Source: Candidatus Aenigmatarchaeota archaeon (lineage in GTDB: Archaea; Aenigmatarchaeota; Aenigmatarchaeia; QMZP01; QMZT01). From it: a stretch of 64,000 bases of DNA. Under the pieces are notes generated by a model. It saw only the letters and a program-made list of their open reading frames with translations, searched no databases and had not been told where the DNA came from. Numbering within the stretch: position 1 is the stretch's first letter; each line of letters begins with the position of its first letter. The position numbers were made by a program, and so were the translations under genes. The stretch spans positions 25,431 through 89,430 of the forward strand of contig JBGPQP010000001.1 in the NCBI GenBank assembly GCA_041489155.1, given 5' to 3'. Shown here piece after piece: positions 1,252 to 48,876 of the stretch.

Positions 1252-2958
1252 ATGGCAGATCTGGAGAAGCCTCTGCAGAGGATGAGCATAGAAGAGAAGA
1301 AGCAGCTGATAGAGGAGAAGAAGAAGGCAAAATATGAAAGTCTGATAGCATACTGGAAAAAAGAGCTCAAAGGCTATGACATGGCCCTTGATTATTTTCT
1401 CGACAAGGCAAGGGCTACAGCCGGGATATACGGAGATGTGTGCATAAATCCGGCGCTTATCGACCAGATAGTAAGTCTCAATCCCGTCACGCTCGAAGGC
1501 CAGGCCGAAATAATCTATAATATTTTCATTTACAGGACGGCCAAGTGGCATTACCACGTCGAAAAGGCAGACGAATATCTCAGGGTCACGCCAACCGCTC
1601 CGCCTGCATTCGCTCCGTTGATGGCGCAGAAGGAGAGGCTGGAAGGCCATATAAAGGCCGGCCTCGCCTCAGCCGCGCAGGCCGTCGCAGACTACGAGCT
1701 TCTCAAGCATGACGAAAGGAAGTACAGGGAAATTCTCGACTATTTCGATCTGGGCAAGAAAGACGAGCATGTGCTCCGCGCACTATTCGTCGACAGGGTC
1801 GACGCCTTTGTCGGGGAAGGCTACTCGATGGTCACCATGACGAGGCGCTGGCCTACCATCATAGGCGATTTTCTGAAGATGAAGAGCGAGTGGACGGACA
1901 CCAAAATCATAAGGGAGAAGCTAAGCGTCACCAATGTTGAAGCAAACGTGCTTAAAACGAAGAACGAGCTCTTCAAGGAATGGAAAAAGCTTTTCTTCCC
2001 GGACGTGAGAGAGCGTTATGGCAGGATAAAAAACCTGCTGGACTCGAGGAAAAGGTCCGTCGACGAATACAGGGAATGGCTCAAACCGTATCTCAACAAG
2101 CTCAAGACCATAAAGGAAGAGGCGGAAATAAAGGATGCAGCTTCCGAACTCACGGAAATAACCAAGCTTTCCTTCACCCCGCAGGGCGAGGTCAATGCGA
2201 AACTCTGGTTCTGGAAACCCATAAGGCCGGAGGAAATGGGGAAACCGCTGGTGATACAGGGGTGGGGCGAGATACCGACTTTCGACGACTGGGTGAAGGA
2301 ACATCTGCCGGCGCTCGAAGCGAAGTATGAAGTCACAATGTCCGAGGAGGAGATAAGGAAGTTCCTTGACAAGTGCATAAGAGGCCACTACCGGGGCATG
2401 AAAAGGCCCGAGTTGCACATGATATACCCTGCTCCGTCGATTGACCCGAGATTCTTATATTATTTTTTCATCGATCTTGACTATGTCTGCCAGTACAAGA
2501 AAGGTTCCACTGGCCCGATGGTGGTTGAGGATCAGTACTGGCACTTCCACCCGTTTTTGATTTCAAAAAATTTCCTTCTTTTCGCCCTGCTCGAGCTCGA
2601 ATACAAAAAGAAAAAATTCGCAGAGGATATAGAAAGGCTGATAGGCGTGAAGAAGATAGAAGACGAATACATGGAAGAGGCCAAGAAGAAGTGGCCTGGG
2701 CAGGATAAACGCAAGAAGCAGAGGAAGAATTTTTCAGAAACATGGAACGAATCAAAGGTCAGGTGGATAGCAAGGAGGAGGAAGGTAAAGAAAGCGCTTA
2801 AGCCGATACTCAAATTCTTCATAAAGCCCGGCCCCTACGAGATCAACGCTGCTGAAAGGATTTCGAAAACCTACGGCCTGTATTCGGGAGCGCAGGTAGA
2901 GGAGCTCAGGGATCTCATAAAGGAAACTAGTTATAGGATAAGTGGCCAGAGACCGTGA
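1252..2958 (+). CDS. large uncharacterised protein (568 aa), first gene of a two-gene operon
   Basis: Long ORF with protein-like, K/E/W/Y-rich composition and no recognisable catalytic motif. Its stop overlaps the start of the next gene by 17 nt, implying co-translation. Confidence 0.6.
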   Translation: MADLEKPLQRMSIEEKKQLIEEKKKAKYESLIAYWKKELKGYDMALDYFLDKARATAGIYGDVCINPALIDQIVSLNPVTLEGQAEIIYNIFIYRTAKWHYHVEKADEYLRVTPTAPPAFAPLMAQKERLEGHIKAGLASAAQAVADYELLKHDERKYREILDYFDLGKKDEHVLRALFVDRVDAFVGEGYSMVTMTRRWPTIIGDFLKMKSEWTDTKIIREKLSVTNVEANVLKTKNELFKEWKKLFFPDVRERYGRIKNLLDSRKRSVDEYREWLKPYLNKLKTIKEEAEIKDAASELTEITKLSFTPQGEVNAKLWFWKPIRPEEMGKPLVIQGWGEIPTFDDWVKEHLPALEAKYEVTMSEEEIRKFLDKCIRGHYRGMKRPELHMIYPAPSIDPRFLYYFFIDLDYVCQYKKGSTGPMVVEDQYWHFHPFLISKNFLLFALLELEYKKKKFAEDIERLIGVKKIEDEYMEEAKKKWPGQDKRKKQRKNFSETWNESKVRWIARRRKVKKALKPILKFFIKPGPYEINAAERISKTYGLYSGAQVEELRDLIKETSYRISGQRP

Positions 2959-4768
2959 AACTATGATAAGGGTCGGAGTCACGACGGGTCTGTATTACAT
3001 CGCAAGGGCTGAGGAGCTCGCTACGTCGCTTAAGAAAATAGGCTATGCCCTCTCGAAAGGTTCAAACTCCATCGAAATCTCCGGCGATACGCCGCATGAA
3101 ATAGACTACACACTGGGCAAGGAGATACGCGCCCTCGCTGAAAAACAGGGCATCCACCTGTGTTTCCACGGCTCGCTGACGACGCCTTTCGAAATCCCCG
3201 AGCGCACGGACTGGAGGGACGCGCAGGACCACGTGTGCAAATCCATACGCTCCGCGGTTTTTTCGGGATGCAAATACGTCCTCTTCCATGCATGCCTGCA
3301 TTTCTGGCTCGAGATGATAACTTACACGTCGTCGAAGCTTGAGATAGTCATGTGCGACCATCACGGCAGGTTCATTTCAGAGGTATTCTTCGAGAACAAA
3401 AAAATGAGGGACTGGTTCGCAGTGAAGATGTGGCAATACGAAAGGCAATATCCCCAGCAGATACTGAGCGAAGAGGAATTGCAGGAAGCGAGCGGGAGGG
3501 TCGGAACGGAAATACGTATATGGGAAACCGAGGAAAACAGGAGAAGGCTTTCCGAGCGCCTGAAAAAGTACCCGATAATAATGACGCCCTACGGGCCAGA
3601 ACAGGACATAAAACCCGAGGAACGCAAACGCATAGAGAACGAGGTGGTAAGGGATGTCAGCATGGAAGGAGGCAAGATGTACTCGGAAAAGTACAGGAAG
3701 TACATGGGCGAGATGGTGAGGGAAAGGATGCAGAGGGACCCGATCGGTAACAGGAGATGGAGGGTCGACAACTGGGGCAAGCTGACTGACGCATACGATA
3801 TAATGGCGCATTTCATGTTCTACAACAGAGATCCCATCTGGATCGCGATGGCTGAAATATACAAGGACGTGCTCGCTTCCTACAAGATGGACTACAGCGA
3901 CGACTGGTGGGTCGACAGGGCATGGAGGCGCGCACAGGATCTGAACGACAGGGATTTCAAACAGTTCTGGTATGCCGCGATAGGGGCGAAGTTCCTTGAG
4001 GGCCACATGAGGGATGCGATGGATTTCCTGAACAGAAGGTTGATAGACGAAATTAAAAGTTCCCCGTTCCCTCCTGAGGACATCAAAAAACTGATTGACA
4101 TAACCAAAAACCTGAAGATAACGATAGAGATGCCCGACGCGAGGGAGCCTAGATACGCCGGCCTGTACATTCTCTGGCATCCGAAACAGATTTACACGGC
4201 AATAAAGACCATAAGGAAGACGATCGGGACCGACAGGCTTTTCATGACCGTCGACTGGGAGCACATCGCAGGGCACGGCGTCGATCCTTTGATTGAGAAG
4301 GACTACCTGAAGAAGCTTGCTCCGGACTTTGGCAAATTCGTGCTTTCGGTCCATTCCAACGCGCCAAATCCGCTGCACGCGCATTATCCGATAGAGCTTG
4401 GCGACATGGAAATTTACAGGCTCAACTGGTTCTTGCGCGAAACGGGTTTCGGCAAGCAGAATTTCGACGTTTACCTCTGGTTCGAGCGCGGAGGCGGCGA
4501 CGACCCTTTCAAGCAGTCGGTCGATACGCTGAAACTCTGCGCGAAATTCCTGGAGAAAGACGTCCCTCCAGACCATCTGCCCGAGGAATATTTCGGCATA
4601 AAGATGACGGGCATGGATTACTGGAGGCAGGAACAGATAATGAGGGACCACAGGTTCGAGCCGCTGAAAGACCTCATGGAAGTGCCTGAAGAAGAATGGG
4701 GCCTGCTGTCGAGCTCGGCGACAAAGAAAGGCAAGGCAAAGGAATTCAAGAAAGCCGAAATGAGGTAG
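2942..4768 (+). CDS. xylose-isomerase-like TIM-barrel protein (sugar-phosphate isomerase/epimerase or AP-endonuclease-2-like) with a large internal insertion
   Basis: The N-terminus MIRVGVTTGLYY…AEELATSLKKIGYALSKGSNSIEISGDTPHE…GIHLCFHGSL matches the start of xylose-isomerase-like barrels (hydrophobic beta1, E-I/L-S/W-G-D-H-PHE, then an H-A-P/H-G beta3). The C-terminus …LFMTVDWEHIAGHGVDPLIEKDYL…FVLSVHSNAPNPLHAHYPIELGDMEI…FDVYLWFERGG matches the metal-binding D-x-x-H, H-x-H and E segments. Residues ~130-410 form a charged insertion with no counterpart in canonical members. Inference from pattern only. Confidence 0.55.
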   Translation: MARDRETMIRVGVTTGLYYIARAEELATSLKKIGYALSKGSNSIEISGDTPHEIDYTLGKEIRALAEKQGIHLCFHGSLTTPFEIPERTDWRDAQDHVCKSIRSAVFSGCKYVLFHACLHFWLEMITYTSSKLEIVMCDHHGRFISEVFFENKKMRDWFAVKMWQYERQYPQQILSEEELQEASGRVGTEIRIWETEENRRRLSERLKKYPIIMTPYGPEQDIKPEERKRIENEVVRDVSMEGGKMYSEKYRKYMGEMVRERMQRDPIGNRRWRVDNWGKLTDAYDIMAHFMFYNRDPIWIAMAEIYKDVLASYKMDYSDDWWVDRAWRRAQDLNDRDFKQFWYAAIGAKFLEGHMRDAMDFLNRRLIDEIKSSPFPPEDIKKLIDITKNLKITIEMPDAREPRYAGLYILWHPKQIYTAIKTIRKTIGTDRLFMTVDWEHIAGHGVDPLIEKDYLKKLAPDFGKFVLSVHSNAPNPLHAHYPIELGDMEIYRLNWFLRETGFGKQNFDVYLWFERGGGDDPFKQSVDTLKLCAKFLEKDVPPDHLPEEYFGIKMTGMDYWRQEQIMRDHRFEPLKDLMEVPEEEWGLLSSSATKKGKAKEFKKAEMR

Positions 4769-15511: not shown

Positions 15512-15815
15512 CAGGGGGCCTCCAACTGCGGGGCTAGGCCTACCGCACCTTCGGGTGGCAAACGGTCTTCATGGCCGGTTGTAGTTTACGGGTGGCTTTG
15601 CGAGGACTGCAAGCCCAGTCCTGCCAACTGAGAAGCCTTGTCCTGCAGGATCATCTTCATAGTGAACCGGGTCAGGGTCGGAAAGTTTCGCACGTTCCGC
15701 GTGCGTGCCCCGAAAGACAGCAGCCCTAAACCGTGTTGGTGGTGCTTGCAGGGTTACAGGGTGGAGAAGGCGGACCGGATAACTTCCAGCTTTTCGTAAA
15801 AGTCTAACGTTAACA
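15512..15815 (+). ncRNA. signal recognition particle RNA (7S/SRP RNA), boundaries approximate
   Basis: A GC-rich non-coding island in an AT-rich genome. It contains GGGGCUAGGCC near the 5' end (common in archaeal 7S RNAs) and the helix-8 region CCGGGUCAGGGUCGGAAAG…GAAAGACAGCAGCCC, which resembles the conserved CCAGGUCAGGUCCGGAAGGAAGCAGCC core of SRP RNAs. The only ORF here (15569..15856, minus) is arginine/proline-rich and looks like an artefact. Confidence 0.6.
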
Positions 15816-15893
15816 CGCCTCCTGCTCTTTGTTATATTTCCGTAAACAAGCAGCAATTCTCGGATTTTTTATAGGCGATGACAATATTTTAAT

Positions 15894-17675: not shown

Positions 17676-17882
17676 ATGGGAAGAATAAAAACGACCCCGA
17701 TAAAAACGCTCGGCGACCAGCTCATAAGAGAGCACACCGACAAGTTTAGCGTTGACTTTGAAAAGAACAAGGTTGTGCTGGGAGATTTAAAAGAGATAAA
17801 ATCGAAGAAGGTGAGGAACATACTTGCTGGTTACATAACCAAGGAAATGCAAAAGCTGAAGAAGAGCGACGTGAGTGTATGA
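17676..17882 (+). CDS. rps17e: 30S ribosomal protein S17e
   Basis: MGRIKTTPIKTLGDQLIREHTDKFSVDFEKNKVVLGDLKEIKSKKVRNILAGYITKEMQ aligns with S17e (MGRVRTKTVK…NDFxxNKxV…SKKLRNKIAGYVT). Confidence 0.85.
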   Translation: MGRIKTTPIKTLGDQLIREHTDKFSVDFEKNKVVLGDLKEIKSKKVRNILAGYITKEMQKLKKSDVSV

Positions 17883-18973
17883 AGCTTGAAGACGTGATAG
17901 AAAACGCATTCATGGTAAAGCCGGAAGAAGCGTTGTCGCAAGTGGCCTCAAGAATGGCAAACGAAAAGAAATATGAGGCTTTCGTTTTTGACAAAGAACT
18001 GAAGGGCATCGTAACCCTTGACGACATAGTCAAAAAAAGAGTCAGCGAGCCGCAGAAGATGAAGATTTCATATCTCATGAAGCCCGTGACCGTTTTTTCA
18101 GTAGAAGCGCCCGTCGAAGACATAATGAATTACATGTTGGTTAGTGAGCACAGGTCTTTGCCCATCGAGAAAGACGGTAAGATATACGCGATAACAAAAC
18201 CTAAGTTGCTCAAATTCGTAAAAGACGAAATTTTTGCCGGTAAAAAAGCAATAGATGTAATGCAGAAAACATACTGCGCAAGCACCAACGACACGATATC
18301 TACTGTTGCAACAGTAATGCGTGACACGGGCGTTAACAGGATACCCGTTGTAGACGAAGAGGGCAGATTCGCAGGCCTTGTCGACAGCCTCAGCCTGGCA
18401 GGCATGCTTGTAGGCAGGGAGAGATCGCAGTTCGGCGAGAGGGATGGAGAAAAGGTGAAACTCGGCAACGTGGGTGTCAGCACGTTCCTAAGGACTGATA
18501 TACTGAAGGTCTCGCCTGAAACCGACCTCAAACAAATCGTCAAGAAAATATCCAACGAGGATTCATGTACCGCTATAGTAGAGGAAAACGGAAAGCTCAT
18601 GGGCATGATAACAATAAAGGATATTTTCAAGCTGATAGGCAAATCGCTCGAAACCGTGTACATAAGAGTTAGCGGTCTCCATGACGAAGACGAATTCGTA
18701 AGAAATAAGATAGACGAGATGATAGAGAAGACCATAAACAAATTGCTGAAAACAGTCAAGGTGACTTACGTGGCACTCCATGTCGATACCCACAAAAAGA
18801 AGGTGAGGAGAGACGAAAGAATGAAATATTCGGTGCATGGCAGGCTTGTCACAGACAAGGGTAACTTCTACGCGAGCGATTACGAATGGGAGCCGACGAA
18901 GGCAGTTAAGGTTTTTCTTGACAGAATAGAAACCGAAGTTCACAGACAGATAGAAAAGACAAGAGGCTATTAG
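17879..18973 (+). CDS. four-CBS-domain protein fused to a C-terminal HPF/RaiA (ribosomal S30AE)-like domain
   Basis: Four CBS repeats of the form …V..D.L..I.T..D/N… are followed by ~100 aa, YIRVSGLHDEDEFVRNKIDEMIEKTINKLLKTVKVTYVALHVDTHKK…YSVHGRLVTDKGNFYASDYEWEPTKAVKVFLDRIETEVHRQIEK. This block matches the beta-alpha-beta-beta-beta-alpha pattern of HPF/YfiA (…NITGKxMEIT…, …[40 protein letters not shown]). Confidence 0.65.
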   Translation: MKLEDVIENAFMVKPEEALSQVASRMANEKKYEAFVFDKELKGIVTLDDIVKKRVSEPQKMKISYLMKPVTVFSVEAPVEDIMNYMLVSEHRSLPIEKDGKIYAITKPKLLKFVKDEIFAGKKAIDVMQKTYCASTNDTISTVATVMRDTGVNRIPVVDEEGRFAGLVDSLSLAGMLVGRERSQFGERDGEKVKLGNVGVSTFLRTDILKVSPETDLKQIVKKISNEDSCTAIVEENGKLMGMITIKDIFKLIGKSLETVYIRVSGLHDEDEFVRNKIDEMIEKTINKLLKTVKVTYVALHVDTHKKKVRRDERMKYSVHGRLVTDKGNFYASDYEWEPTKAVKVFLDRIETEVHRQIEKTRGY

Positions 18974-20448
18974 AAAATATTTTTACCTTCAAAAAATTCA
19001 TCAATCTTCTGCGGTAAATCCTTTATCTTGATTCTTATCTGCTTCATTGAGTCCCTTTCACGAAGGGTTACATCGTGTTTATCGACCGATTCGTAGTCGA
19101 TGGTTATGGCCAGCGGAATGCCAAGCTGATCATATATTACGTAACGCTTTCCTATCGACTGCTTTTCATCGTATCTAACCTCATATTTGGTTTTTAGCGT
19201 CTCGTATACTTCCCTCGCTTTCACGTCAAGCCCGTCCTTCCTGACTAGCGGAAGTACTACGACGTCGAGCGGTGCAAGGCTGCGCGAAAACTGCAGGACA
19301 GGTTTCCCGTCCCTTTCTGAAAGCGAGTTTTCAAGGATGGAATAAAATATGCGATCGAGTCCCATTGAAAGTTCAAAAACGTGGGGGATGAATTTCTCCT
19401 CATCTTCAACGACCGAAAGATCTGTTCCGGAAACTTTTGAATGCGATGCCATGTCGTAGTCAGTCCTGTAGTTACATGCCACTAGCTCTAGCCATCCCAC
19501 GCTGGTTTTTACCTCGAAGTCCCATGTCTCCTTCGAATAAAACGCCCTCGCATTTTCCTCAAGCTCACGGAAGCGCATGTCCTTCGGATCAAAGCCGCAC
19601 TTCTCGAAAAACTGCTGGGTTACGGCAAGATAATAACCGATGAGTCTGCCGGACACTGTTTTCTTCTCAACGGCTTTTTCAAGCGTGATGGATTGCGTTT
19701 CCTTTCCCATGAGCTTAAGCCTGAGCTCTAAGTTTTTGTATTTTTCAAATTCCGGGACATCATCTATCTTCTTGGGGTTGAAGAAAACTTCGGTCTCCAG
19801 CTGCGTGAATTCCCTCGAGCGAATCAGGCCCTGTCTGGGTGAAATTTCGTTCCTGAAGGATCTCCCGGCCTGTGAAATGCCTAGCGGCAGAGAAACCCTT
19901 GCAGTCTTGTATATCTTCTGGAAATCGGTAAATATGTTTTGGCATGTTTCAGGCCTCAGGTAGGCGTTCTTCTCGGCGGTGAGGGGACCAATAGAAACGC
20001 CGATCATCATGTTGAACTTCTGCACTTTTTCCAGTCTGCCTTTACACTCCGGGCATTTTACAGCGTGCTTTTCTATAAGTCCGTTGAACTCAGAGGGTTC
20101 CATTGCCTCCGGTATTGTTTTTCCGGCAACTTCCTCGATAAGCTTGTCTGCCCTGAATACCTTCCTGCATTTGGAACACTGCACCAGAGGATCAACGAAG
20201 TTCTTCAAGTGACCTGACGCCTCGAAATTTTTTCTGGGGAGAATAAGACACCCGTCAATTTCCAGAGAGTCAGTTCTGCGGACGATTTCCCTTCTCCAGA
20301 GGTCAATGATTTTCCTGCGCATTACTGTCCCAAGGTGGCCGAAATCCAGAAAACCGGCCAGTGCCGAGTGTATTTCAGCGGTGGGAAAAAACAAACCGCG
20401 TTGATCGGCGAGCTCCTGTATACGGGCGAACTTATCCATGAAAATCAC
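18970..20448 (-). CDS. glyS: glycyl-tRNA synthetase (archaeal/eukaryotic-type class II)
   Basis: Motif 2 GISQAGRSFRNEISPRQGLIRSREFTQLETEVF (GlyRS FRNEISPR…REFTxxExExF), an internal Zn-ribbon insertion (CSKC…CPEC) and a C-terminal anticodon-binding domain. Confidence 0.8.
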   Translation of the reverse strand: MIFMDKFARIQELADQRGLFFPTAEIHSALAGFLDFGHLGTVMRRKIIDLWRREIVRRTDSLEIDGCLILPRKNFEASGHLKNFVDPLVQCSKCRKVFRADKLIEEVAGKTIPEAMEPSEFNGLIEKHAVKCPECKGRLEKVQKFNMMIGVSIGPLTAEKNAYLRPETCQNIFTDFQKIYKTARVSLPLGISQAGRSFRNEISPRQGLIRSREFTQLETEVFFNPKKIDDVPEFEKYKNLELRLKLMGKETQSITLEKAVEKKTVSGRLIGYYLAVTQQFFEKCGFDPKDMRFRELEENARAFYSKETWDFEVKTSVGWLELVACNYRTDYDMASHSKVSGTDLSVVEDEEKFIPHVFELSMGLDRIFYSILENSLSERDGKPVLQFSRSLAPLDVVVLPLVRKDGLDVKAREVYETLKTKYEVRYDEKQSIGKRYVIYDQLGIPLAITIDYESVDKHDVTLRERDSMKQIRIKIKDLPQKIDEFFEGKNIF

Positions 20449-39810: not shown

Positions 39811-40074
39811 TTACATTATGTCCTTTTCGGATACTATGACGAAGTCCCCCACGGATTTGACCGCAGAGAATGGTACCAGCGTGCGTCCTTTGTCATCTTC
39901 CTGCAGGTTGAGTTCACCAGCATGCTTCGTTGGTTGAACTAGGACCAGATTGATGAGTTCTCCAGATTCAACAATGTAATCAAGATCGCCTACCACTCCG
40001 AATTTCTTTCCGCTTTCCTCCGAAATGAGTATCTTACCTATAAGGTCCCTGCTTCTTACTCTTTCTTCTGACAT
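39811..40074 (-). CDS. PRC-barrel domain protein
   Basis: 87 aa with the characteristic …LIGKILISEESGKKFGVVGDLDYIVESGELINLVLV… beta-barrel pattern. Confidence 0.65.
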   Translation of the reverse strand: MSEERVRSRDLIGKILISEESGKKFGVVGDLDYIVESGELINLVLVQPTKHAGELNLQEDDKGRTLVPFSAVKSVGDFVIVSEKDIM

Positions 40075-40123
40075 AAAAACCCTCCCTCGATAATGATATT
40101 ATTAAAGTGTGATATTTAAAAAT

Positions 40124-41215
40124 TTATGCATGAACCATAAGGGTTCTTATCTTTTCAGATAATACATACTGGTAGCTTTTGCCTCTTTTCTTTCTTATGA
40201 TAGTTGCGTCTTTCACAAGCCTTTTAAGAATGTTGTTTATGGACCGTATCGCATTATCCTTGCTCTTGTAGTCGCCCATGTCCATTTTCTCAACGATTTC
40301 CGTCGGTGTCAGCTCTCCGTATTTCCATAATATTTCGATTATATTCCTTTGTTTTGACGGCAGAGATTTCAGGGAACCGAATGAGGTTCTTCGAGAATGG
40401 CTAATGTGTGTTTCGAATTCTGCATCTCTCATGAAGTTCATGTCAACAGTAGAGATGTTGTCCACAAGTGCCTTGTTCACCAAATCGTTGCACATCCTTA
40501 TAACTTCACGCGGGAAGCCTCCTGTTTTTTCGTATATCATTTCTACTGTTTCCGAAGTGAACGGCTTTATGTCTTCGCCACCAACGTGTTCTATCCTTCT
40601 TTTTATAAGCTCCCTGATTTCTGATTTTGTAAGATTTATGAGTTCAACCTTTGTGTTGGCCCTTCTCATGAATGTTTCAAGTCTGTCTCTCAGAATAGGT
40701 TCTAGTGTAGGCAGACCTGCAATTACAACAGATAGATTGTCTATCTGGTCGGTAAGAGTTCTAAGCCACTCTAGCGTTTCCGTGCTTGCCTCATGGCCTT
40801 CATCCACGAGAAGAACGGCTTTTTTATTCTTCATTTTTTCGTTCACCCATTCACTGAGATTGTAAATGTTTATGTTTTTGCTGCGTGAAAATAATCTTTC
40901 GAGTGTTCCTACGTGTATGAAGTTGGTGAAAATCTTCACCCAGTCGTCTGGATTGCTCGGTGGTTTCGAAAGGTAAAATATTTTTCTGTGTTTTTCGAAC
41001 CTATTCGTCAAAAACTTCAAGAGCGTTGTTTTTCCTGATCCCGTTGGGCCTATTAATATTGACAATTTGTCATTGTTTTGTATACTGGTTGACAATTTTT
41101 CTGTCTCTCTGCTATATCCTACGATTAAATCCGGAAGTATCTTGAAACTGAAGGGGTTTTCTCTCCAGCTAAATACCTTCATATATTTTTCATCTAACTT
41201 CATTTCCAAATTCAT
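40124..41215 (-). CDS. Orc1/Cdc6-like AAA+ ATPase with C-terminal winged helix
   Basis: The N-terminus …ENPFSFKILPDLIVGYSRETEKLSTSIQ…LSILIGPTGSGKTTLLKFL follows the Orc1/Cdc6 pattern (Lxxd-Y-P..L..RExE…GxxGTGKT). Walker B LLVDEGHE; sensor regions; a C-terminal wH (…KQRNIIEILWKYGELTPTEIVEKMD…). It is shorter (363 aa) than canonical Orc1. Confidence 0.5.
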   Translation of the reverse strand: MNLEMKLDEKYMKVFSWRENPFSFKILPDLIVGYSRETEKLSTSIQNNDKLSILIGPTGSGKTTLLKFLTNRFEKHRKIFYLSKPPSNPDDWVKIFTNFIHVGTLERLFSRSKNINIYNLSEWVNEKMKNKKAVLLVDEGHEASTETLEWLRTLTDQIDNLSVVIAGLPTLEPILRDRLETFMRRANTKVELINLTKSEIRELIKRRIEHVGGEDIKPFTSETVEMIYEKTGGFPREVIRMCNDLVNKALVDNISTVDMNFMRDAEFETHISHSRRTSFGSLKSLPSKQRNIIEILWKYGELTPTEIVEKMDMGDYKSKDNAIRSINNILKRLVKDATIIRKKRGKSYQYVLSEKIRTLMVHA

Positions 41216-41337
41216 AATTTCATATAATTAGGAAAGCTATTTAAATGCTTTTCGTGAAGTTGTGTGAACTTTGACTGAAAAAGGTCTATGTTTATACGTG
41301 ATGAAAACAATTTATATAAGTTCTCCAAATTCATTTC

Positions 41338-41892
41338 ATGAGGTGCTTCATAGCTATAGACGTCGATGAAAAACTTTTTGATAAGATTACAGAACTGCAG
41401 AAAGGAATTAATAAACTGAATGTTGACGTGAAGCTTGTTGAACCTGAAAATCTTCATTTCACGGTTAAATTTCTGGGGGACATGAATGAAGATGAAGTGA
41501 ATGAAATTAAGAATTCGCTTGGCGAATGTCTTAAAAATGAACATGAATTTAAAATCAACATTACAGGCTTTAATTATTTTGGAAACCCGAGCTACATTAG
41601 AACTCTGTGGTTGGATGTGAAAGAAGGCCAAAATGAGCTTAAAAAACTGGTTCAAATGGTTAACGATTGTGTTAAAATAGGCAAACTTGAAGTTTTGCCT
41701 CATCTGACACTTGGAAGAGTGAAAAGTCCCATAAATAAAGATTATTTGATCAAGTTCATAAACGAGAATAAAAACGTGAAGATTGGTGAAATGAACGTGA
41801 ACTACGTGAAATTAAAAGCGAGTACGCTTACGAAAAACGGTCCAGTATACAATAATTTGGCTGTTTTCAACTTGGTGCCTTGTTATGAATGA
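41338..41892 (+). CDS. thpR: RNA 2',3'-cyclic phosphodiesterase / 2'-5' RNA ligase (ThpR/LigT, 2H family)
   Basis: Two H-x-T/S-x motifs of the 2H phosphoesterase fold: LHFTVKFLG and PHLTLGRV. 184 aa. Confidence 0.8.
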   Translation: MRCFIAIDVDEKLFDKITELQKGINKLNVDVKLVEPENLHFTVKFLGDMNEDEVNEIKNSLGECLKNEHEFKINITGFNYFGNPSYIRTLWLDVKEGQNELKKLVQMVNDCVKIGKLEVLPHLTLGRVKSPINKDYLIKFINENKNVKIGEMNVNYVKLKASTLTKNGPVYNNLAVFNLVPCYE

Positions 41893-42268
41893 GAAAAAAC
41901 TAACGAAGATAAGTGCTGTTGGTGTGTGCATAAGCATAATAGCTCTGTATATTGTAACAAATCAAATCTTTTCAGTAAATGTGAATATTGGTGAAATTGA
42001 CAAGTCATTCATCGGAAAGAGCGTTAATATAACAGGTACGGTGGTTGGCATAACAAAAAACAAGGGTAATTTTTTCGTGGACCTTGAAGATGACACGGGC
42101 AAAATAAAATTGATATTGTGGGAGGATACTGCTGAATTGTTGCAATCAAACGGCATTGAAATCAACGAACTGAACAAAGGTAACATTATTAACGTTGTGG
42201 GTGAGGTTCAGGTATACAGGGGCGAATTAGAAATTATACCTATAAGAGGAAATTTGAATTTTTTGTGA
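41885..42268 (+). CDS. membrane-anchored OB-fold nucleic-acid-binding domain protein
   Basis: N-terminal TM helix (ISAVGVCISIIALYIVT), then an OB-fold-like block (KSVNITGTVVGITKNKGNFFVDLEDDTGKIKLILWED…INVVGEVQVYRGELEI), similar to the tRNA_anti/RPA-type OB folds. Translationally coupled to thpR. Confidence 0.5.
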   Translation: MNEKKLTKISAVGVCISIIALYIVTNQIFSVNVNIGEIDKSFIGKSVNITGTVVGITKNKGNFFVDLEDDTGKIKLILWEDTAELLQSNGIEINELNKGNIINVVGEVQVYRGELEIIPIRGNLNFL

Positions 42269-42269
42269 A

Positions 42270-43307
42270 CTAGAAACGTTCATGCGCAGTTTTGATAAGT
42301 TCTGTCACGAGTTTAATTATATCCTTCACATCATTCATATCCGAAACTTCTGTTGGTGTGTGAAGATAACGTGAAGGTGCCAATATCGCTAGTGAGGGTA
42401 TACCTTCTCTTATCATCGGTGTCATTGAAGCGTCAGTTGCACCTCCTGAAACAATGTCGAATTGTATCTTCATGTTGTTCTTTTTTGCAGTATCAACTAC
42501 CCATTGTTTAACCTCATTTTGTATAATACTTATTGCATCTTTTATCATAAGAACCGGTCCTTCTCCAAGTTTTGCAGTGGCCTCATATGGTTTGATTTCA
42601 GGTGTATCGCCGGCTGTTGTTACATCAAGGGATATCACTATGTCAGGGTTTGTTGCAAATACAGAGCCCCTTATGCCTATAAGCCCTATTTCTTCTTTCA
42701 CTGTTCCAACTGCATAAACTGTCCCTTTGAATTTAGTTTTCTTTAAATTTTTCATGACTTCTATTAATTCCAAGCATCCTATGCGATCATCGAATCCATA
42801 TCCCGTTATTCTAGAACCACAAAGTTTGTCGAACTCGCCATAATTTGTTATGAAATCTCCTGTCCTGATACCCATTTTTTCAACTTCTTTTTTGTTCTTT
42901 GCCCCCACATCTATGAACATTTCTGCTAACTTCACGGGCTTGTTCACGTCTTCTTTGTCTTGGAGGTGAATTGGTTTTGAACCAATAACTCCTATGACGG
43001 GTCCCTTGGAGCTATGTATCTTGAATTTTTGCGAAAGAAGGATTTTGGGATCCCATCCTCCTATGGTTTCAAATCTTATGAAACCCTCATCGTCTATATA
43101 TTTCACCATTAAACCTACTTCATCCATGTGGGCACTGAGCATTATTTTAGGAGAACCAGATCCTTTTCTGCATATCAAGTTACCTATTTTGTCAACTTTA
43201 AGTTCTTCAACATATGGTTTCAGTTCTTTAATCAGCACATCTCTTACGTTTTTTTCATCGCCGGAAATTGAAGGAGAATCTACAAGTTTTTTCAATGTTT
43301 CTTCCAT
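42270..43307 (-). CDS. M42-family metallo-aminopeptidase (FrvX/TET-like)
   Basis: Metal-binding blocks SAHMDEVGLMV, GFDDRIGC and later E/D/H ligands; 345 aa typical of M42 peptidases. Confidence 0.85.
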   Translation of the reverse strand: MEETLKKLVDSPSISGDEKNVRDVLIKELKPYVEELKVDKIGNLICRKGSGSPKIMLSAHMDEVGLMVKYIDDEGFIRFETIGGWDPKILLSQKFKIHSSKGPVIGVIGSKPIHLQDKEDVNKPVKLAEMFIDVGAKNKKEVEKMGIRTGDFITNYGEFDKLCGSRITGYGFDDRIGCLELIEVMKNLKKTKFKGTVYAVGTVKEEIGLIGIRGSVFATNPDIVISLDVTTAGDTPEIKPYEATAKLGEGPVLMIKDAISIIQNEVKQWVVDTAKKNNMKIQFDIVSGGATDASMTPMIREGIPSLAILAPSRYLHTPTEVSDMNDVKDIIKLVTELIKTAHERF

Positions 43308-43367
43308 ACGGACACCACCTACCTACTATCGACTAGATATAAAATATTGGTTTTCCGGTCTATAAAT

Positions 43368-44660
43368 TCATTCTATATCTTCTTTTGACAGGATGTTAAC
43401 TGGAGATTTTAAGTTTTCCTTTTCCATTCCAACCAAGAACTTCACGGATTTCCTTCTGGCTATCATGTCAAGTTTGTAGTCAACCCTGCCGTCGAATATG
43501 ACTGCGTACGGGTTGTCAAGCGTTTTCAGCGTATTCTGTAATTCTTTGGTTGGAACCTTACCCAGAATGTTGAAAAAAGAATCGAAAATGCATGCGGCTC
43601 TGGTTCCTATAAGTTCGTCAAGTGTTTTCTTGAATATCTTTTTCTGTTCATCGGTTATCGTTGTTCTCTTGGGAAGAGGTTGCTGCTGTTTAAAATCCTT
43701 ATCTCTCTGGACGAATTCGTTCATTGGTCTTTCTGTCGATGGCGGCCTCTCAAAGGGTTTCTCAATTGGTCTTTCAATGGGCCTTTCTATGGGTCTTTCT
43801 CTTCTTTCATTGTTGTTCTGCCTATCGATCTTGCCTTCGAGTTTAAATTGTGATGCCGATATCTTGTCCCTCAATGCCTTGAAAACCTCTTTTTTGGTGA
43901 GCTCTTCTACCTCTTTGCCTTCTGGAGCAATGGCAACAAAATCAAGGTCTGTCGTTTCCATCAGGCTTTTCAAGTTCAAAAAGCCGCCCCTGTCACCATC
44001 AAAAAATGCAGTGGTTGTTTTTTGTTTTGAAAGGTTGATTATTGTTTGTGGTATCGAGCTGCCTTCTATGGCTATTACGTTCTTGATTCCGTATCTAATC
44101 ATATTTATTACGTCTGCCCTTCCTTCAACTATTATTATTTCTTCCGACTCTAGAACACCTGGGCCGCAAGGCAAACCCTGATAGCTGGTTATTTCATAGG
44201 TCTTTATCTCCTGTCTTATCTCTTCCGCTATCTTGGTTGTGTCCGGTATGCCTTTCTCAAGAAGTTCTCTCAATATCGATTTTGCCTTTTCTATGACGAA
44301 TTTTCTCTTTAATTCCCTAGTGTCCTCGACTGATTTCAGTATTATCTTTGCGATGCAGGGTCCGACCCTCTCTATAGTTTCCAAAGTAGCGGCTATTAGA
44401 GCAGTTTCTGCTGAGTCGAGAGAAGACGGAATTATGACCTCTCCGTGAGATTTACCTCTTTCGGAATTTATGTTAACCTCGATTCTTCCAATTCTTCCAG
44501 TTCTTTGCAGTTCCCTGAGATCGAGATCAGAACCAAGCAGCCCTTCTGTTTGTCCGAATATTGCTCCTATAACATCAGGTTTTTCTATTACTCCCTGAGC
44601 GTCTATTTCTGCCCTTACAACGTATTTTATCGACGTTGGCGCGAGTTTTGACATGAACAT
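43368..44660 (-). CDS. dnaG: archaeal DnaG-type primase (Toprim)
   Basis: Archaeal DnaG N-terminal signature VIGAIFGQTEGLLGSDLDLRELQRTGRIGRIEV. Toprim core IIIVEGRADVINMIRYGIKNVIAIEGS with DxD (FDGDRGG). An internal tandem peptide repeat ERPIERPIERPIEKPFERPP is present. Confidence 0.85.
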   Translation of the reverse strand: MFMSKLAPTSIKYVVRAEIDAQGVIEKPDVIGAIFGQTEGLLGSDLDLRELQRTGRIGRIEVNINSERGKSHGEVIIPSSLDSAETALIAATLETIERVGPCIAKIILKSVEDTRELKRKFVIEKAKSILRELLEKGIPDTTKIAEEIRQEIKTYEITSYQGLPCGPGVLESEEIIIVEGRADVINMIRYGIKNVIAIEGSSIPQTIINLSKQKTTTAFFDGDRGGFLNLKSLMETTDLDFVAIAPEGKEVEELTKKEVFKALRDKISASQFKLEGKIDRQNNNERRERPIERPIERPIEKPFERPPSTERPMNEFVQRDKDFKQQQPLPKRTTITDEQKKIFKKTLDELIGTRAACIFDSFFNILGKVPTKELQNTLKTLDNPYAVIFDGRVDYKLDMIARRKSVKFLVGMEKENLKSPVNILSKEDIE

Positions 44661-45033
44661 CCTCCTCCAATGAAAGAGAATCCGGGCTATTCAGAGCTCC
44701 GAAATCCTCAATTTTATTTTTTCCCAAAGTCATTACCTTCCACCTTAATTCCGAATTTGGACTTTTTCCTTGCCTTTGAAGCAGGTATTTCAATTTTTTT
44801 GCAATCTCCCTGCCTTTTGTGTCGAAATCGGTCAGTATGACTACCTGTTTTTTCGCACTTAATGCGACCTCGGCCACCTCATAAAGCGGCCTGCCGTTGA
44901 TCGCAATAATATCTTTCAGGCCGAGGGTTTTTAAAGCTTTTTTGTCCATTTTCCCCTCGACTATGATCAGTTTGTCCTCCAAGCCCCTTATAACCTCATC
45001 GAGTTGCTCTTCATCGATTTGTTTGTTTTTCAT
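44575..45033 (-). CDS. small Toprim-domain protein
   Basis: LIIVEGKMDKKALKTLGL…VVILTDFDTKGREIAKKL is a Toprim (E…DxD) core. The 3' ~85 nt overlap the dnaG start; the Arg/Ser-rich tail may be out-of-frame read-on. Confidence 0.5.
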   Translation of the reverse strand: MKNKQIDEEQLDEVIRGLEDKLIIVEGKMDKKALKTLGLKDIIAINGRPLYEVAEVALSAKKQVVILTDFDTKGREIAKKLKYLLQRQGKSPNSELRWKVMTLGKNKIEDFGALNSPDSLSLEEDVHVKTRANVDKIRCKGRNRRSGSNRKT

Positions 45034-45860
45034 ATCAATGCGTCCACTATGTCTCTTTTAGTTACAATGCCAATAAGCTCTTCTTCATCAGTGACTGGCA
45101 AGCCACCTATATGCATGCTTTTCATGAGGTTTATTACTGAAAACAAGTCAGCATTGAACTGGATTGTGACCAGATCCTTGTTCATAATTTTTTCTATCTT
45201 CGTCTTATCCGTGACTAGAGTATTCAAACTCTTGTTTTTATATAAATGCTTCAGTATATCGATCGGTGTCACAACACCAAGCAGTATGTTGTCTTCCACG
45301 ACTGGCAGCCTCCTAAAACCACCCCTGCACATCATTTTTGCGACATCGTGTATATTGTTGTCTTTCCGTATGAATATTGGCCTTTCCACCATTATTTCGC
45401 TTACCTCTATGCCCACTGGTCTGTTTATTAGTTTGACTAAATCCAATTCGGAGACCACCGATATTATCTTTTTGGAATCAACTATTGGATAAAGACCACT
45501 TCTTTCCATCTTGAAAATTTCAAGCGCTCTGCCTATACTGGTCATGTAATGTATGGTTCTAACGTGTGTTGTCATGAATTTTTCGACTTTAAGTTCTATG
45601 TTTTCCCTGTTTCTCTTGAAAATCTCGTGTTTTTCGCCGCCACCGAGCAATTCCAACAGATCAATTGTTGTAACCATGCCCTTCAGAGATTCCGAATGAT
45701 CGACTACTGGTATTTTTCTTACCCCTTCCGAGAACATGAGCCTCAAAACATCCAAAAGTTTTGTTTTTTCATCAGAAAACACCAATCTTCTTGATGATAT
45801 CTCTGTTACTGTCTTTTTTGTGTCCACAAAGGCTCCGAGAACAACTTTTCTGTTAAGCAT
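45030..45860 (-). CDS. four-CBS-domain protein
   Basis: Four CBS repeats (…VRKIPVVDHSE…, …GLYPIVDSKKIISVVSELDL…, …FRRLPVVEDNILLGVVTPIDIL…, …IGGLPVTDEEELIGIVTKRDIV…). The track ORF extends to 46055, but the upstream part is hydrophobic junk overlapping the opposite-strand gene. The start was chosen at the MLNRKVV Met. Confidence 0.65.
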   Translation of the reverse strand: MLNRKVVLGAFVDTKKTVTEISSRRLVFSDEKTKLLDVLRLMFSEGVRKIPVVDHSESLKGMVTTIDLLELLGGGEKHEIFKRNRENIELKVEKFMTTHVRTIHYMTSIGRALEIFKMERSGLYPIVDSKKIISVVSELDLVKLINRPVGIEVSEIMVERPIFIRKDNNIHDVAKMMCRGGFRRLPVVEDNILLGVVTPIDILKHLYKNKSLNTLVTDKTKIEKIMNKDLVTIQFNADLFSVINLMKSMHIGGLPVTDEEELIGIVTKRDIVDALI

Positions 45861-45909
45861 AACAATCCATGAACATTTTATTTTAATTGGAATGAAATAA
45901 AAAATTATC

Positions 45910-47010
45910 ATGCCGAATTTTAAAGGAGCGCTGAAAACAAAGCTACCAAAAAAATTAGAGGACAGGGTATCTCTGCTGTTTATAATCATTACGCTGCTTT
46001 TGGCTTTTTTTCTTACGTTTTCCATTTCATTTATAGTAGGTAAACCGATTGGCACAGATTTCTGGTTTCACCTTAAAATAGCAGAATCTTACGCGAGAGG
46101 CGAGAACGCGCTCTTCAATGAAGAATTCATGGCCCCCAACAGAGGTCCATATCCACCGCTTTTTCACCTGATGCTGGCATTGTTTGTTACTTCGGGTTTT
46201 ATTTTGCAGATAGCAACTTTTCTGCAGGTAATGTTTTATCCTTTGGCTTTGTTCACATCTGTTTTTCTGGTTTGGAAAAGGATTAATGCGTCTTCAGCGT
46301 CTTTTGTTTCTATTGCCCTCTTTTCATCGGTCGCCTTCTTTGACAGATCTATGCAAGTAATTCCTCAGGCCTTCGACATGATACTCTTTCCGCTTGCAAT
46401 TTATTTTTTTCTCACAAAGAGACGGATATTCTTCCTGATTTCTATGTCGATAATGATATATTCACACGGTGCGTTTGGTTTTCTCCTATTTAGTTCTCTC
46501 GTCTTATACAATTTAAAATACAAAGTTTCAAAGAAAATGATAATAGATGTTCTTGTTGCAACTATTCCAATACTGGTATTAATACTTGTTTTTCTTCCAT
46601 CACAAATCGGTTTGATCAATGACATAAAAAATCCGCAGGAAAAACTTATCAAGGAAAATCCAATATCTTTATTTGTTTATATGGGTATTTTTCCCACATC
46701 AACATTCATAGTTTCATTGATGCATTTTTTTCATAAAAAGAGGAAATTAAGTAAAACGGAAATAATGTCACTTTTGTGGTTAATAGTATTACTGCCGGTG
46801 ATAGTTTTTTACCCAGACAGATTTTGTACCTATGCAGTCGTTCCCGTGTCAATCTTGGCTTCAAAATTTTTGTCAGATATTTCTTTTGCTCATGGTAGAT
46901 GGTTGGGTCTCTTATTACTCGTATTTTCATTTGCAATATCATTGATTACATATTTGAACTGGTGGCAGGTTTTATATGAAACTTCTTCTGTGAGTTTTGA
47001 TATTCATTAA
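45910..47010 (+). CDS. polytopic membrane protein, possibly GT-C-type glycosyltransferase-like
   Basis: About 10 predicted TM helices with a conserved-looking first periplasmic loop (KPIGTDFWFHLKIAESYARGEN). This resembles PMT/ArnT/AglB-like GT-C N-terminal loops only loosely. Confidence 0.4.
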   Translation: MPNFKGALKTKLPKKLEDRVSLLFIIITLLLAFFLTFSISFIVGKPIGTDFWFHLKIAESYARGENALFNEEFMAPNRGPYPPLFHLMLALFVTSGFILQIATFLQVMFYPLALFTSVFLVWKRINASSASFVSIALFSSVAFFDRSMQVIPQAFDMILFPLAIYFFLTKRRIFFLISMSIMIYSHGAFGFLLFSSLVLYNLKYKVSKKMIIDVLVATIPILVLILVFLPSQIGLINDIKNPQEKLIKENPISLFVYMGIFPTSTFIVSLMHFFHKKRKLSKTEIMSLLWLIVLLPVIVFYPDRFCTYAVVPVSILASKFLSDISFAHGRWLGLLLLVFSFAISLITYLNWWQVLYETSSVSFDIH

Positions 47011-47032
47011 TAAGAATGGATAAATTATAACT

Positions 47033-48412: not shown

Positions 48413-48876
48413 ATATTCTGTTTCATTTTCTCTTGAATTATCTTTTCGTTGATTTGTTTTTTGGAAATGCCTGGAATTACTTAATTGCCATATTTGTCTT
48501 TTCCGTGCTGATTGATATCACCCATTTGCCATATCTTTTCAAGTTCGGAAAGAACGTCGTTAAAAAAAGATTCGGCTCGGAGGCGAGAACGAGATTTCAT
48601 GAAATATATGGCTTGACTCTGTTTTCAGCGATTGGCTGCCTGCTTTATTTCTTCTTTGATCAGATGATAGTGGAAATGGCCGTATTGTGCGTGATCCTGC
48701 ATTTTGCAGTGGATTTCGTGGCAGGAAAATCCATGCCTTTTTACCCATACTCCAGAACCGAGATTTTTCTTGGCGTATCACCTTATGGGTACAGAAACAA
48801 GATAATTTTTGAAATTGTTTCTACTGTTTTGGTGGGGGTGTTATTCTGGTTCAATACAGCAAGCCTTCTTTTATGA
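48409..48876 (+). CDS. small integral membrane protein (possibly membrane-bound metal-dependent hydrolase-like)
   Basis: Four or five TM helices with conserved-looking His/Asp positions (LIDITHLPY, LHFAVDFVAG). Translationally coupled on both sides (ATGA overlaps with cca and the next gene). Confidence 0.4.
   Translation: MNILFHFLLNYLFVDLFFGNAWNYLIAIFVFSVLIDITHLPYLFKFGKNVVKKRFGSEARTRFHEIYGLTLFSAIGCLLYFFFDQMIVEMAVLCVILHFAVDFVAGKSMPFYPYSRTEIFLGVSPYGYRNKIIFEIVSTVLVGVLFWFNTASLLL

What the first reader, a model, noticed from the sequence alone, without database searches (positions are those of the whole stretch)
17879..18973. Four CBS domains fused to an HPF/RaiA-like ribosome-binding domain, next to S17e
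The C-terminal ~100 residues (YIRVSGLHDEDEFVRNKIDEMIEKTINKLLKTVKVTYVALHVDTHKK…YSVHGRLVTDKGNFYASDYEWEPTKAVKVFLDRIETEVHRQIEK) follow the secondary-structure order and key positions of bacterial hibernation-promoting factor / S30AE proteins. The N-terminal ~260 residues are two CBS pairs, which are adenosyl-ligand sensors. Together they suggest an energy-charge-gated ribosome hibernation or silencing factor. The gene is co-oriented with, and 4 nt-overlapping, rps17e.
Basis: inference. Interest (0 to 1): 0.55.

Follow-up and report, generated by a model that had tools for sequence, protein, structure and literature searches.

The report
Archaeal ribosome hibernation factor HibA/AHA

Summary
ORF 17879..18973 (+) encodes 364 aa and starts in an ATGA overlap with the stop codon of rps17e. 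It has four Pfam CBS motifs (E 4.9e-31). [quoted passage not shown]

A model of the C-terminal domain alone (pLDDT 86.7) retrieves only bacterial and chloroplast HPF/RaiA/YfiA/pY structures as its top 36 Foldseek PDB hits (TM 0.5-0.77).

The whole protein aligns end to end with Pyrococcus abyssi HibA, solved on the ribosome (PDB 9sr9 chain H; E 6.7e-30, 29% identity). The alignment includes an ungapped 18-residue "PTC loop" in CBS3 with the G-E-x-x-G-E-K motif, and the CBS4 nucleotide motif G-h-h-T-x-x-D.

The family is published as HibA (Nat Commun 2026) and AHA (bioRxiv 2026), and is also noted in the Sri paper. It is reported in about 42-47% of archaeal genomes.

"Energy-charge gating" remains a hypothesis even for the characterised members.

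The only detail I did not find in those papers is that rps17e-hibA adjacency is fixed in the Aenigmarchaeota clade (6 of 6 loci) and absent from 4 distant relatives.

The parts
17879..18973 (+). hibA/AHA coding sequence (364 aa plus TAG stop)
   Evidence: ORF. Full-length alignment to P. abyssi HibA (PDB 9sr9_H), E 6.7e-30. 28.6% identity over 339 columns. 65 homologues.
17879..18043 (+). CBS1 (aa 1-55); carries a canonical G43-I-V-T46-L-D-D49 motif
   Evidence: Pfam CBS, four stretches. Secondary structure of the model. Motif scan.
18062..18217 (+). CBS2 (aa 62-113)
18242..18406 (+). CBS3 (aa 122-176); its own motif G166-L-V-D-S-L-S172 is non-canonical
   Evidence: P156 is nearly invariant and aligns with P165 of P. 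abyssi HibA, an ATP-contact residue.
18416..18469 (+). Extended loop after CBS3 (aa 180-197, RERSQFGERDGEKVKLGN), equivalent to the HibA 'PTC loop' and AHA 'loop 3'
   Evidence: It aligns without gaps to P. abyssi HibA 190-207, RFKAQYGELAGEKIPPFS. G186 and G190 are nearly invariant in the family. pLDDT is below 50 for 180-193. The paper's conserved 200-GEKIP-204 corresponds to GEKVK here.
18470..18637 (+). CBS4 (aa 198-253) with nucleotide motif G242-M-I-T245-I-K-D248
   Evidence: Best Pfam CBS stretch is 200-253. T245 is invariant and D248 at least 90% conserved. They align with T256 and D259 of P. abyssi HibA, which contact ATP.
18656..18964 (+). [quoted passage not shown]
   Evidence: Models. 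Foldseek PDB top 36 hits are all HPF/RaiA/YfiA/pY. Profile against PDB. PF02482 in 23 of 38 homologues. Domain pI 9.07.
17676..17882 (+). rps17e (eS17, 68 aa), immediately upstream and overlapping by 4 nt; probably co-transcribed and translationally coupled
   Evidence: Pfam Ribosomal_S17e, E 2.4e-14. ATGA overlap read. Adjacency found in 6 of 6 clade relatives.
18970..20448 (-). Class II aminoacyl-tRNA synthetase (GlyRS-like by my reading of the translation), convergent, with stop codons overlapping at TTAG 18970-18973
   Evidence: ORF. Sequence. The same convergent gene (tRNA-synt_2b plus HGTP_anticodon) is present in L001, L002 and L003.

Best explanation
The gene encodes an Aenigmarchaeota (DPANN) orthologue of the archaeal ribosome hibernation factor HibA, also called AHA. 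By homology to the P. abyssi and Haloferax volcanii proteins solved on the ribosome, the proposed mechanism is as follows. The basic C-terminal HPF/RaiA-like domain sits in the mRNA/tRNA channel of the small subunit at the decoding centre. The N-terminal four-CBS disc docks on the large subunit over the A/P (or P/E, or E/L1) tRNA sites. The 18-residue loop after CBS3 reaches into the peptidyl-transferase centre. One polypeptide therefore clamps the two subunits together, blocks mRNA and tRNA binding, silences translation and shields rRNA from degradation during starvation. The CBS3/CBS4 interface probably binds an adenine nucleotide, AMP preferred. Whether that binding switches ribosome binding on or off is unproven. 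What is shown here: the architecture, the fold, homology to the solved protein, and conservation of the loop and of the CBS4 nucleotide motif. What is inferred by homology: ribosome binding, translation inhibition and AMP binding. In this lineage the gene is probably co-transcribed and translationally coupled with rps17e, which would fit post-translational rather than transcriptional control. That last point is inference.
For: phmmer against PDB sequences gives P. abyssi HibA (9sr9_H and seven further entries) at E 6.7e-30 over residues 28-359, spanning both modules. A second CBS-plus-HPF chain, 9l96_a, scores 2.1e-12. Pairwise BLASTP gives 28.6% identity and E 2.3e-31. Pfam finds four CBS stretches. 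[quoted passage not shown] The top 36 Foldseek PDB hits of the C-terminal domain are all hibernation factors of the HPF/RaiA family, with E down to 2.6e-05 and TM up to 0.77. The CBS tetrad matches SriA/B/D, Dri, MJ1225 and AMPK-gamma. PF02482 is hit in 23 of 38 homologues, and one homologue is already labelled 'CBS/RaiA' by JGI. The PTC-loop equivalent has the same length with no gaps and keeps G-E-x-x-G-E-K. ATP-contact residues P165, T256 and D259 of P. abyssi HibA correspond to P156, T245 and D248, which are invariant or nearly so in this clade. Function of the family is documented in PMC13324472 (cryo-EM, in vitro translation inhibition, the hibA deletion phenotype), in PMC12934967 and in PMC13454478.
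Against: Nothing was measured for this protein or for any DPANN member. Identity to the solved protein is only about 29%. The window protein's own C-terminus does not reach any Pfam S30AE score. T137, a ribose contact in P. abyssi, is Q129 here. The CBS3 motif is degenerate (GLVDSLS against GLVTLHD), so nucleotide stoichiometry or specificity may differ. The C-terminal tail is about 14 residues shorter than in P. abyssi, so the tail contacts with eS28 (F384, E386) are probably missing. The Foldseek PDB library stops at 2026-04-08. The HibA entries did not appear among the full-length model's listed top 50 hits, possibly because they were released later, so there is no direct structural superposition on HibA itself.
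Confidence: 0.92

Rival explanations
1. It is a CBS-tetrad transcriptional regulator of the HhpR/CM-3 type, or a generic 'predicted transcriptional regulator' as JGI labels some homologues. On this reading the C-terminal domain would be a nucleic-acid-binding or oligomerisation module unrelated to ribosomes.
For: The top NCBIfam hit is HhpR (E 6e-13). Three homologues carry the JGI name 'predicted transcriptional regulator'.
Against: The HhpR score is 48.6 bits against a cutoff of 520, and the match covers only CBS motifs. The C-terminal domain is an HPF/RaiA fold. The full-length best match is ribosome-bound HibA. CM-3/HhpR lacks an HPF domain.
Confidence: 0.02
2. It is a Sri/ARC/Dri-type CBS hibernation factor. 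In that case the CBS tetrad plus a short 'occlusion element' does the work on one subunit and there is no HPF-type 30S binding.
For: The best Foldseek hits of the full-length model are M. acetivorans Sri chains and Dri. phmmer hits Dri at 3.2e-09 and Sri chains at about 1e-07.
Against: Those matches cover only the CBS tetrad (about 260-300 columns). Sri, ARC and Dri have no HPF/RaiA domain. The window protein has one, and it aligns far better to HibA over its whole length. The Sri paper itself separates 'SriA fused to RaiA/HPF' as HibA.
Confidence: 0.03
3. It is a HibA-family protein that works as a constitutive, ribosome-stoichiometric translation modulator rather than a stress-specific hibernation factor. 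Its fixed operon with rps17e in this DPANN lineage would be the reason.
For: rps17e-hibA adjacency, with a 4-nt overlap or a 4-nt spacer, occurs in 6 of 6 clade loci at 46-75% identity. The AHA authors argue that archaeal hibernation is not governed mainly by transcription.
Against: Gene adjacency does not show co-expression or stoichiometry. An internal promoter is not excluded. There are no expression data.
Confidence: 0.15

Closest known systems
HibA of Pyrococcus abyssi / Thermococcus barophilus (PAB0961, TERMP_00697; PDB 9sr9 series; Madru et al., Nat Commun 2026, PMC13324472)
   Same: [quoted passage not shown] Full-length alignment at E 6.7e-30. The 18-residue PTC loop has the same length and keeps G-E-x-x-G-E-K. 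The CBS4 G-h-h-T-x-x-D motif and P156 are conserved.
   Different: About 29% identity. 364 aa against 392 aa, with a C-terminal tail about 14 residues shorter that ends in a clade-conserved R-G-Y. T137 is Q129 here. The CBS3 motif is degenerate, while CBS1 has a canonical T/D motif that P. abyssi lacks. The beta2-beta3 hairpin is 2 residues longer and very basic. The gene is fused into an operon with rps17e.
AHA of Haloferax volcanii (HVO_2384; Souza et al., bioRxiv 2026, PMC12934967)
   Same: Same family and architecture. Loop 3 of CBS3 enters the PTC. The HPF domain sits in the 30S A/P site. AMP binds at the CBS3/CBS4 junction.
   Different: AHA binds two AMP. Here only one of the two CBS3/CBS4 motifs is canonical, so one site is more likely (inference). 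I could not confirm which PDB entry holds AHA. The 406-aa chain 9l96_a (E 2.1e-12) has the same architecture, but I could not trace its source.
Bacterial and plastid HPF / RaiA (YfiA, pY) / long HPF N-terminal domain (Pfam PF02482 Ribosomal_S30AE)
   Same: Same fold. All of the top 36 Foldseek hits belong to it. By homology it uses the same binding site on the small subunit.
   Different: Sequence similarity is marginal: no Pfam hit for this protein, and profile E-values of 0.08-0.7 against bacterial chains. The beta-hairpin and the last helix are longer. It is fused to an N-terminal CBS tetrad rather than standing alone or carrying the long-HPF dimerisation domain.
SriA-D / ARC-A/P and Dri (archaeal CBS-tetrad hibernation factors; PMC13454478, 10.64898/2026.01.19.700304)
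   Same: Homologous CBS tetrad (Foldseek E down to 2.8e-17). SriA and the Dri N-lobe also occupy the A/P sites of the large subunit and send a loop to the PTC.
   Different: They have no HPF domain. They act as separate proteins in tandem (Sri/ARC) or as a double tetrad (Dri). ATP-triggered release has been shown only for ARC.
AMPK gamma subunit / MJ1225
   Same: Four-CBS disc that binds adenine nucleotides at the CBS3/CBS4 sites (Foldseek E about 1e-15).
   Different: It is the regulatory subunit of a kinase, with no ribosome-binding domain.

Membership tests
HibA / AHA (archaeal CBS-HPF hibernation factor) | N-terminal module of four tandem CBS motifs forming a disc (two Bateman modules) | tested here: met
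   Pfam CBS, four stretches, E 4.9e-31. The AF2 model shows four beta-alpha-beta-beta-alpha units. Foldseek matches to CBS tetrads run over 260-300 columns.
HibA / AHA (archaeal CBS-HPF hibernation factor) | [quoted passage not shown] | tested here: met
   Models. Foldseek PDB top 36 hits are all HPF/RaiA/YfiA/pY, TM up to 0.77. PF02482 in 23 of 38 homologues.
HibA / AHA (archaeal CBS-HPF hibernation factor) | Significant full-length sequence similarity to an experimentally characterised member | tested here: met
   P. abyssi HibA 9sr9_H at E 6.7e-30 over residues 28-359. BLASTP E 2.3e-31. The C-terminal profile alone gives 5.5e-11.
HibA / AHA (archaeal CBS-HPF hibernation factor) | Extended loop in or after CBS3 (PTC loop / loop 3) with a conserved G-E-K core | tested here: met
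   Residues 180-197 align without gaps to P. abyssi 190-207, and GEKVK corresponds to GEKIP. G186 and G190 are at least 90% conserved. The loop is disordered in the free model.
HibA / AHA (archaeal CBS-HPF hibernation factor) | Adenine-nucleotide site at the CBS3/CBS4 interface (AMP > ADP > ATP) | tested here: inconclusive
   By sequence, P156, T245 and D248 match the contact residues P165, T256 and D259. But T137 is Q129 and the CBS3 motif is degenerate. Binding itself cannot be tested with these tools.
HibA / AHA (archaeal CBS-HPF hibernation factor) | Binds 70S ribosomes across both subunits, inhibits translation and preserves ribosomes in stationary phase | not testable with these tools
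   Shown only for the P. abyssi, T. barophilus and H. volcanii proteins.
Bacterial HPF/RaiA (Pfam PF02482 Ribosomal_S30AE) | Matches the Pfam model | tested here: not met
   No PF02482 hit for the whole protein or for the 124-aa C-terminus, even at E <= 10. Homologues do hit (best 8.2e-07). It is a distant homologue, not a Pfam-level member.
Bacterial HPF/RaiA (Pfam PF02482 Ribosomal_S30AE) | Stand-alone ~95-120 aa protein, or long HPF with a C-terminal dimerisation domain | tested here: not met
   The domain is the C-terminal third of a 364-aa protein and is preceded by a CBS tetrad.
Sri / ARC / Dri CBS-tetrad factors | CBS tetrad(s) without an HPF/RaiA domain | tested here: not met
   An HPF-like domain is present. 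phmmer E-values to Sri and Dri (1e-07 to 3e-09) are far weaker than to HibA.
HhpR / CM-3 CBS transcription regulators | Reaches the NCBIfam NF053603 cutoff | tested here: not met
   48.6 bits against a cutoff of 520.

The most novel reading that the evidence does not exclude
In the Aenigmarchaeota (DPANN) clade, hibA has become a fixed, translationally coupled downstream partner of rps17e. The hibernation factor would then be made in step with ribosomal proteins and controlled purely post-translationally through adenylate binding to the CBS tetrad. In these small-genome archaea it also coexists with a second, stand-alone SriB-short/MJ1225-like CBS tetrad (45030..45860), although hibA and sri genes are reported to be largely mutually exclusive. 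This would be a lineage-specific regulatory wiring of a known factor, not a new kind of factor.
Probability: 0.25. Interest if true: 0.3.

Novelty: already known. Interest (0 to 1): 0.2.

Why it matters
It matters mostly as a validation. A reader working from raw sequence alone reconstructed the architecture and function of a family that needed cryo-EM to be discovered. HibA/AHA is the archaeal counterpart of bacterial HPF and is linked to AMPK-gamma-type energy sensing. For the biology, this member adds little. It shows that the complete CBS-HPF form, with its PTC loop and CBS4 nucleotide motif intact, is kept in small DPANN genomes. There it sits in a conserved rps17e-hibA arrangement. That arrangement could be used to test whether hibernation-factor dosage is tied to ribosome synthesis.

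Tried and rejected
1. A direct Pfam/NCBIfam scan of the 124-aa C-terminus found no S30AE hit. The link had to come from homologues, a profile against PDB sequences and structure.
2. Foldseek of the full-length model against the PDB returned only CBS tetrads (Sri, AMPK-gamma, MJ1225, Dri). The CBS module dominates the score, and the library ends at 2026-04-08, which may predate release of the HibA entries. I therefore modelled the C-terminal domain separately.
3. The search for related loci with the 38-sequence alignment failed because no stretch was conserved enough. The single-protein scan of genome contigs gave only 3 close loci.
4. I looked for rps17e next to distant HibA-like genes (P0055, P0057, P0059, P0063). 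It was absent within 3-4 kb in all four, so the linkage is clade-specific and not a family trait.
5. I tried to confirm from supplements that Aenigmatarchaeota genomes were scored HibA-positive in the published surveys. The HibA paper's genome list includes the phylum, but the held text gives no per-genome calls. No supplements are held for the Sri paper.
6. I could not trace the origin of PDB 9l96.
7. The HhpR-type regulator and legacy 'dehydrogenase' annotations were considered and rejected. There is no catalytic or HTH domain, and the HhpR score is far below cutoff.
Full report
**1. The observation**

- The ORF just upstream (17676..17882, 68 aa) is ribosomal protein S17e (Pfam E 2.4e-14).
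- The sequence reads ...GTG AGT GTA TGA with the hibA ATG at 17879, so the two genes share ATGA, a 4-nt overlap.
- Pfam finds four CBS stretches (E 4.9e-31).
- At the 3' end the gene converges on a class II aminoacyl-tRNA synthetase gene (18970..20448, - strand). Their stop codons overlap as TTAG.

The gene is conserved. 54 homologues at 44-99% identity cover 77-100% of it (most cover all of it), nearly all from metagenomes or MAGs that their sources label Aenigmarchaeota. A tail of relatives at 20-29% identity keeps both modules.

**2. What the C-terminus is**

Scanned on its own, the last 124 aa hit nothing relevant in Pfam or NCBIfam. Evidence for an HPF/RaiA domain comes from three independent directions.
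- **Homologues.** 23 of 38 aligned homologues match PF02482 (Ribosomal_S30AE) at E <= 1, best 8.2e-07. One cluster had that Pfam precomputed, and one is named 'CBS domain-containing protein/ribosome-associated translation inhibitor RaiA' by JGI.
- **Profile against PDB sequences.** A profile of the C-terminal domain (alignment A2) hits P. abyssi chain 9sr9_H at 5.5e-11 and 9l96_a at 0.004. Below that, 11 of the remaining 15 hits are bacterial HPF/RaiA/YfiA/protein Y chains at E 0.085-0.7, aligned in one register.
[quoted passage not shown] Foldseek of the domain model against the PDB returns HPF, RaiA/YfiA, plastid pY, mycobacterial MPY/RafH and long-HPF N-domains as all of the top 36 hits. 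E goes down to 2.6e-05, probability is 0.99-1.00, and TM is 0.5-0.77. The first unrelated hits come at E of about 0.04 or worse with TM of about 0.4.

**3. What the whole protein is**

phmmer against all PDB chain sequences gives a full-length match (residues 28-359) to an 8-entry set, 9sr9-9srf and 9t7h chain H, 392 aa, deposited as 'Dehydrogenase' (E 6.7e-30). A literature search identifies the family.
- **HibA** (Madru et al., Nat Commun 2026, PMC13324472): discovered by cryo-EM of stressed P. abyssi ribosomes, 392 aa, CBS module 1-269 plus HPF/RaiA-like domain 270-392.
- **AHA** (Souza et al., bioRxiv 2026, PMC12934967): the same family, found in Haloferax volcanii.
- **The Sri paper** (PMC13454478): noted it independently as 'SriA fused to RaiA/HPF'.
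- **Reported prevalence:** 47% of 4026 archaeal genomes, 2,723 of 6,968 species in 17 phyla, and 2,951 (42%) species.

Pairwise, the window protein and the P. abyssi fragment are 28.6% identical over 339 columns (E 2.3e-31).

**4. Family-specific details, checked residue by residue from the HMMER alignment**

- **The PTC loop.** P. abyssi residues 190-207 (RFKAQYGELAGEKIPPFS) wrap the universally conserved A2602-equivalent adenine in the peptidyl-transferase centre. They align without a gap to window residues 180-197 (RERSQFGERDGEKVKLGN). The GEK core that the authors highlight (200-GEKIP-204) is GEKVK here. G186 and G190 are at least 90% conserved in my alignment. The segment is the only long low-confidence stretch of the model (pLDDT below 50 for 180-193), as expected for a loop that orders only on the ribosome.
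- **The nucleotide site.** ATP contacts listed for P. abyssi HibA include D96, T137, D139, V140, R163, P165, I254, T256 and D259. These map to E90, Q129, T131, Y132, R154, P156, M243, T245 and D248.
  - The CBS4 G-h-h-T-x-x-D motif is intact (G242-M-I-T245-I-K-D248). T245 is invariant, and D248 and P156 are nearly invariant in the clade.
  - Differences: T137 is Q129. The CBS3 motif is degenerate (GLVDSLS against GLVTLHD). CBS1 carries a canonical GIVTLDD.
  - I infer one functional site at CBS3/4 and possibly one in the first Bateman module. This is untested.
- **The HPF-like domain.** It is basic (pI 9.07) with a very basic beta2-beta3 hairpin, HKKKVRRDERMK. That fits rRNA binding.
- **The C-terminal tail.** It is about 14 residues shorter than in P. 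abyssi, so the eS28 contacts of F384 and E386 probably have no counterpart. The clade instead conserves a terminal R-G-Y.

**5. Mechanism**

By homology, one polypeptide bridges the subunits.
- The HPF domain occupies the 30S mRNA/tRNA channel at the decoding centre.
- The CBS disc occupies tRNA sites on the 50S. In P. abyssi it takes three alternative positions: PTC, uL5 and L1 stalk.
- The loop plugs the PTC.

This blocks translation and protects 70S ribosomes. In P. abyssi, full-length HibA cuts in vitro translation about 10-fold, while the N-terminal module alone barely inhibits (source data). Deletion mutants recover poorly from stationary phase and lose ribosomes.

Nucleotide sensing is only partly established.
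- The P. abyssi CBS module binds AMP, ADP and ATP with Kd of 12, 65 and 113 uM.
- Neither AMP nor ATP changed ribosome binding detectably.
- AHA was found with two AMP bound, and its authors only hypothesise gating.
- ATP-dependent release has been shown for the non-fused relatives ARC-A/P.

So 'energy-charge-gated' remains a hypothesis for the family and for this protein.

**6. Context**

The block T2SSF-T2SSF-rps17e-hibA, followed by a convergent class II aminoacyl-tRNA synthetase gene (GlyRS-like by my reading; Pfam tRNA-synt_2b plus HGTP_anticodon in the relatives), then PHP and UbiA genes, recurs in relatives.
- tblastn finds S17e directly upstream of hibA in 6 of 6 clade loci (L001, L002, L003, L005, L006, L007; HibA identity 46-75%). 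Where ORFs or gene calls were read (L001, L002, L003, L006) the spacer is 4 nt rather than the overlap.
- It is absent within 3-4 kb of four distant HibA-like genes.
- None of the papers I read mentions eS17 or this linkage.
- A TTTTAAATA element about 45 nt upstream of the rps17e ATG, and a GTGAT just before it, look like an archaeal TATA box and Shine-Dalgarno sequence. This is my direct reading and is inference only.
- The arrangement suggests co-transcription with a ribosomal protein gene. That would fit the AHA authors' view that control is not mainly transcriptional.

This lineage-specific detail is the only one I did not find in the papers I read.

**7. Rivals**

- **HhpR-type regulator.** Rejected: 48.6 bits against a cutoff of 520, and an HPF domain is present.
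- **Sri/ARC/Dri-type factor.** Rejected as membership, because those lack the HPF domain and score far lower. The CBS tetrad is nevertheless homologous to them.
- **Bacterial HPF Pfam family.** Same fold and, by homology, the same binding site. Membership at Pfam level is not met.

**8. Verdict**

The object is therefore already known, and this copy is a typical member. The residual open questions are nucleotide gating, the meaning of the rps17e operon, and coexistence with a second CBS tetrad in the same window. They concern the family as a whole or are minor.

Noticed in passing
window 45030..46055 (-); likely true start at the ATG near 45860: A second four-CBS protein (Pfam CBS E 5.8e-42) lies 26 kb from hibA. 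Its best PDB sequence matches are MJ1225 (1.3e-27) and the 339-aa M. acetivorans Sri chain 9znf_5 (6.2e-26; SriB, judging by its N-terminal extension). HibA scores only 1.9e-10. Without the doubtful 65-aa N-terminus it would be a 'SriB-short'/MJ1225-like stand-alone tetrad. [quoted passage not shown]
   Followed up: partly
window 15512..15824 (+): An archaeal SRP RNA lies between the Lon-like protease gene and the T2SSF genes. It is a full-length match to Rfam RF01857 at 80.3 bits, E 2.4e-18. That is below the gathering score of 96.5, so the default scan missed it. It explains the GC-rich stretch with spurious ORFs on both strands.
   Followed up: partly
window 57170..57299 (+): A 130-nt tRNA match covers the whole 71-position Rfam model (62.2 bits), so the tRNA carries an intron of roughly 55-60 nt. 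ARAGORN found no tRNA anywhere in the window.
   Followed up: no
window about 40000..50000: This stretch has lower G+C (0.36-0.40 against about 0.44-0.50 elsewhere). It holds a STAND/AAA ATPase with a winged-helix C-terminus, an M42 aminopeptidase, a Toprim-domain protein, the second CBS tetrad, a CCA-adding enzyme, two ORFs with no Pfam match (41212..41703 -, 45910..47010 +), and then ribosomal proteins L1 and L10.
   Followed up: partly
window 18970..18973: hibA and the convergent synthetase gene end on overlapping stop codons (TTAG), which leaves no intergenic room for a terminator. The rps17e/hibA overlap is similarly tight, typical of a very compact genome.
   Followed up: yes
L010 709..1869 and 2616..4058: A distant HibA-like gene (29% identity) also has a convergent class II synthetase gene (tRNA-synt_2b plus HGTP_anticodon) about 750 bp downstream. 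It has a tRNA-splicing endonuclease gene upstream instead of rps17e. This may be remnant synteny.
   Followed up: no
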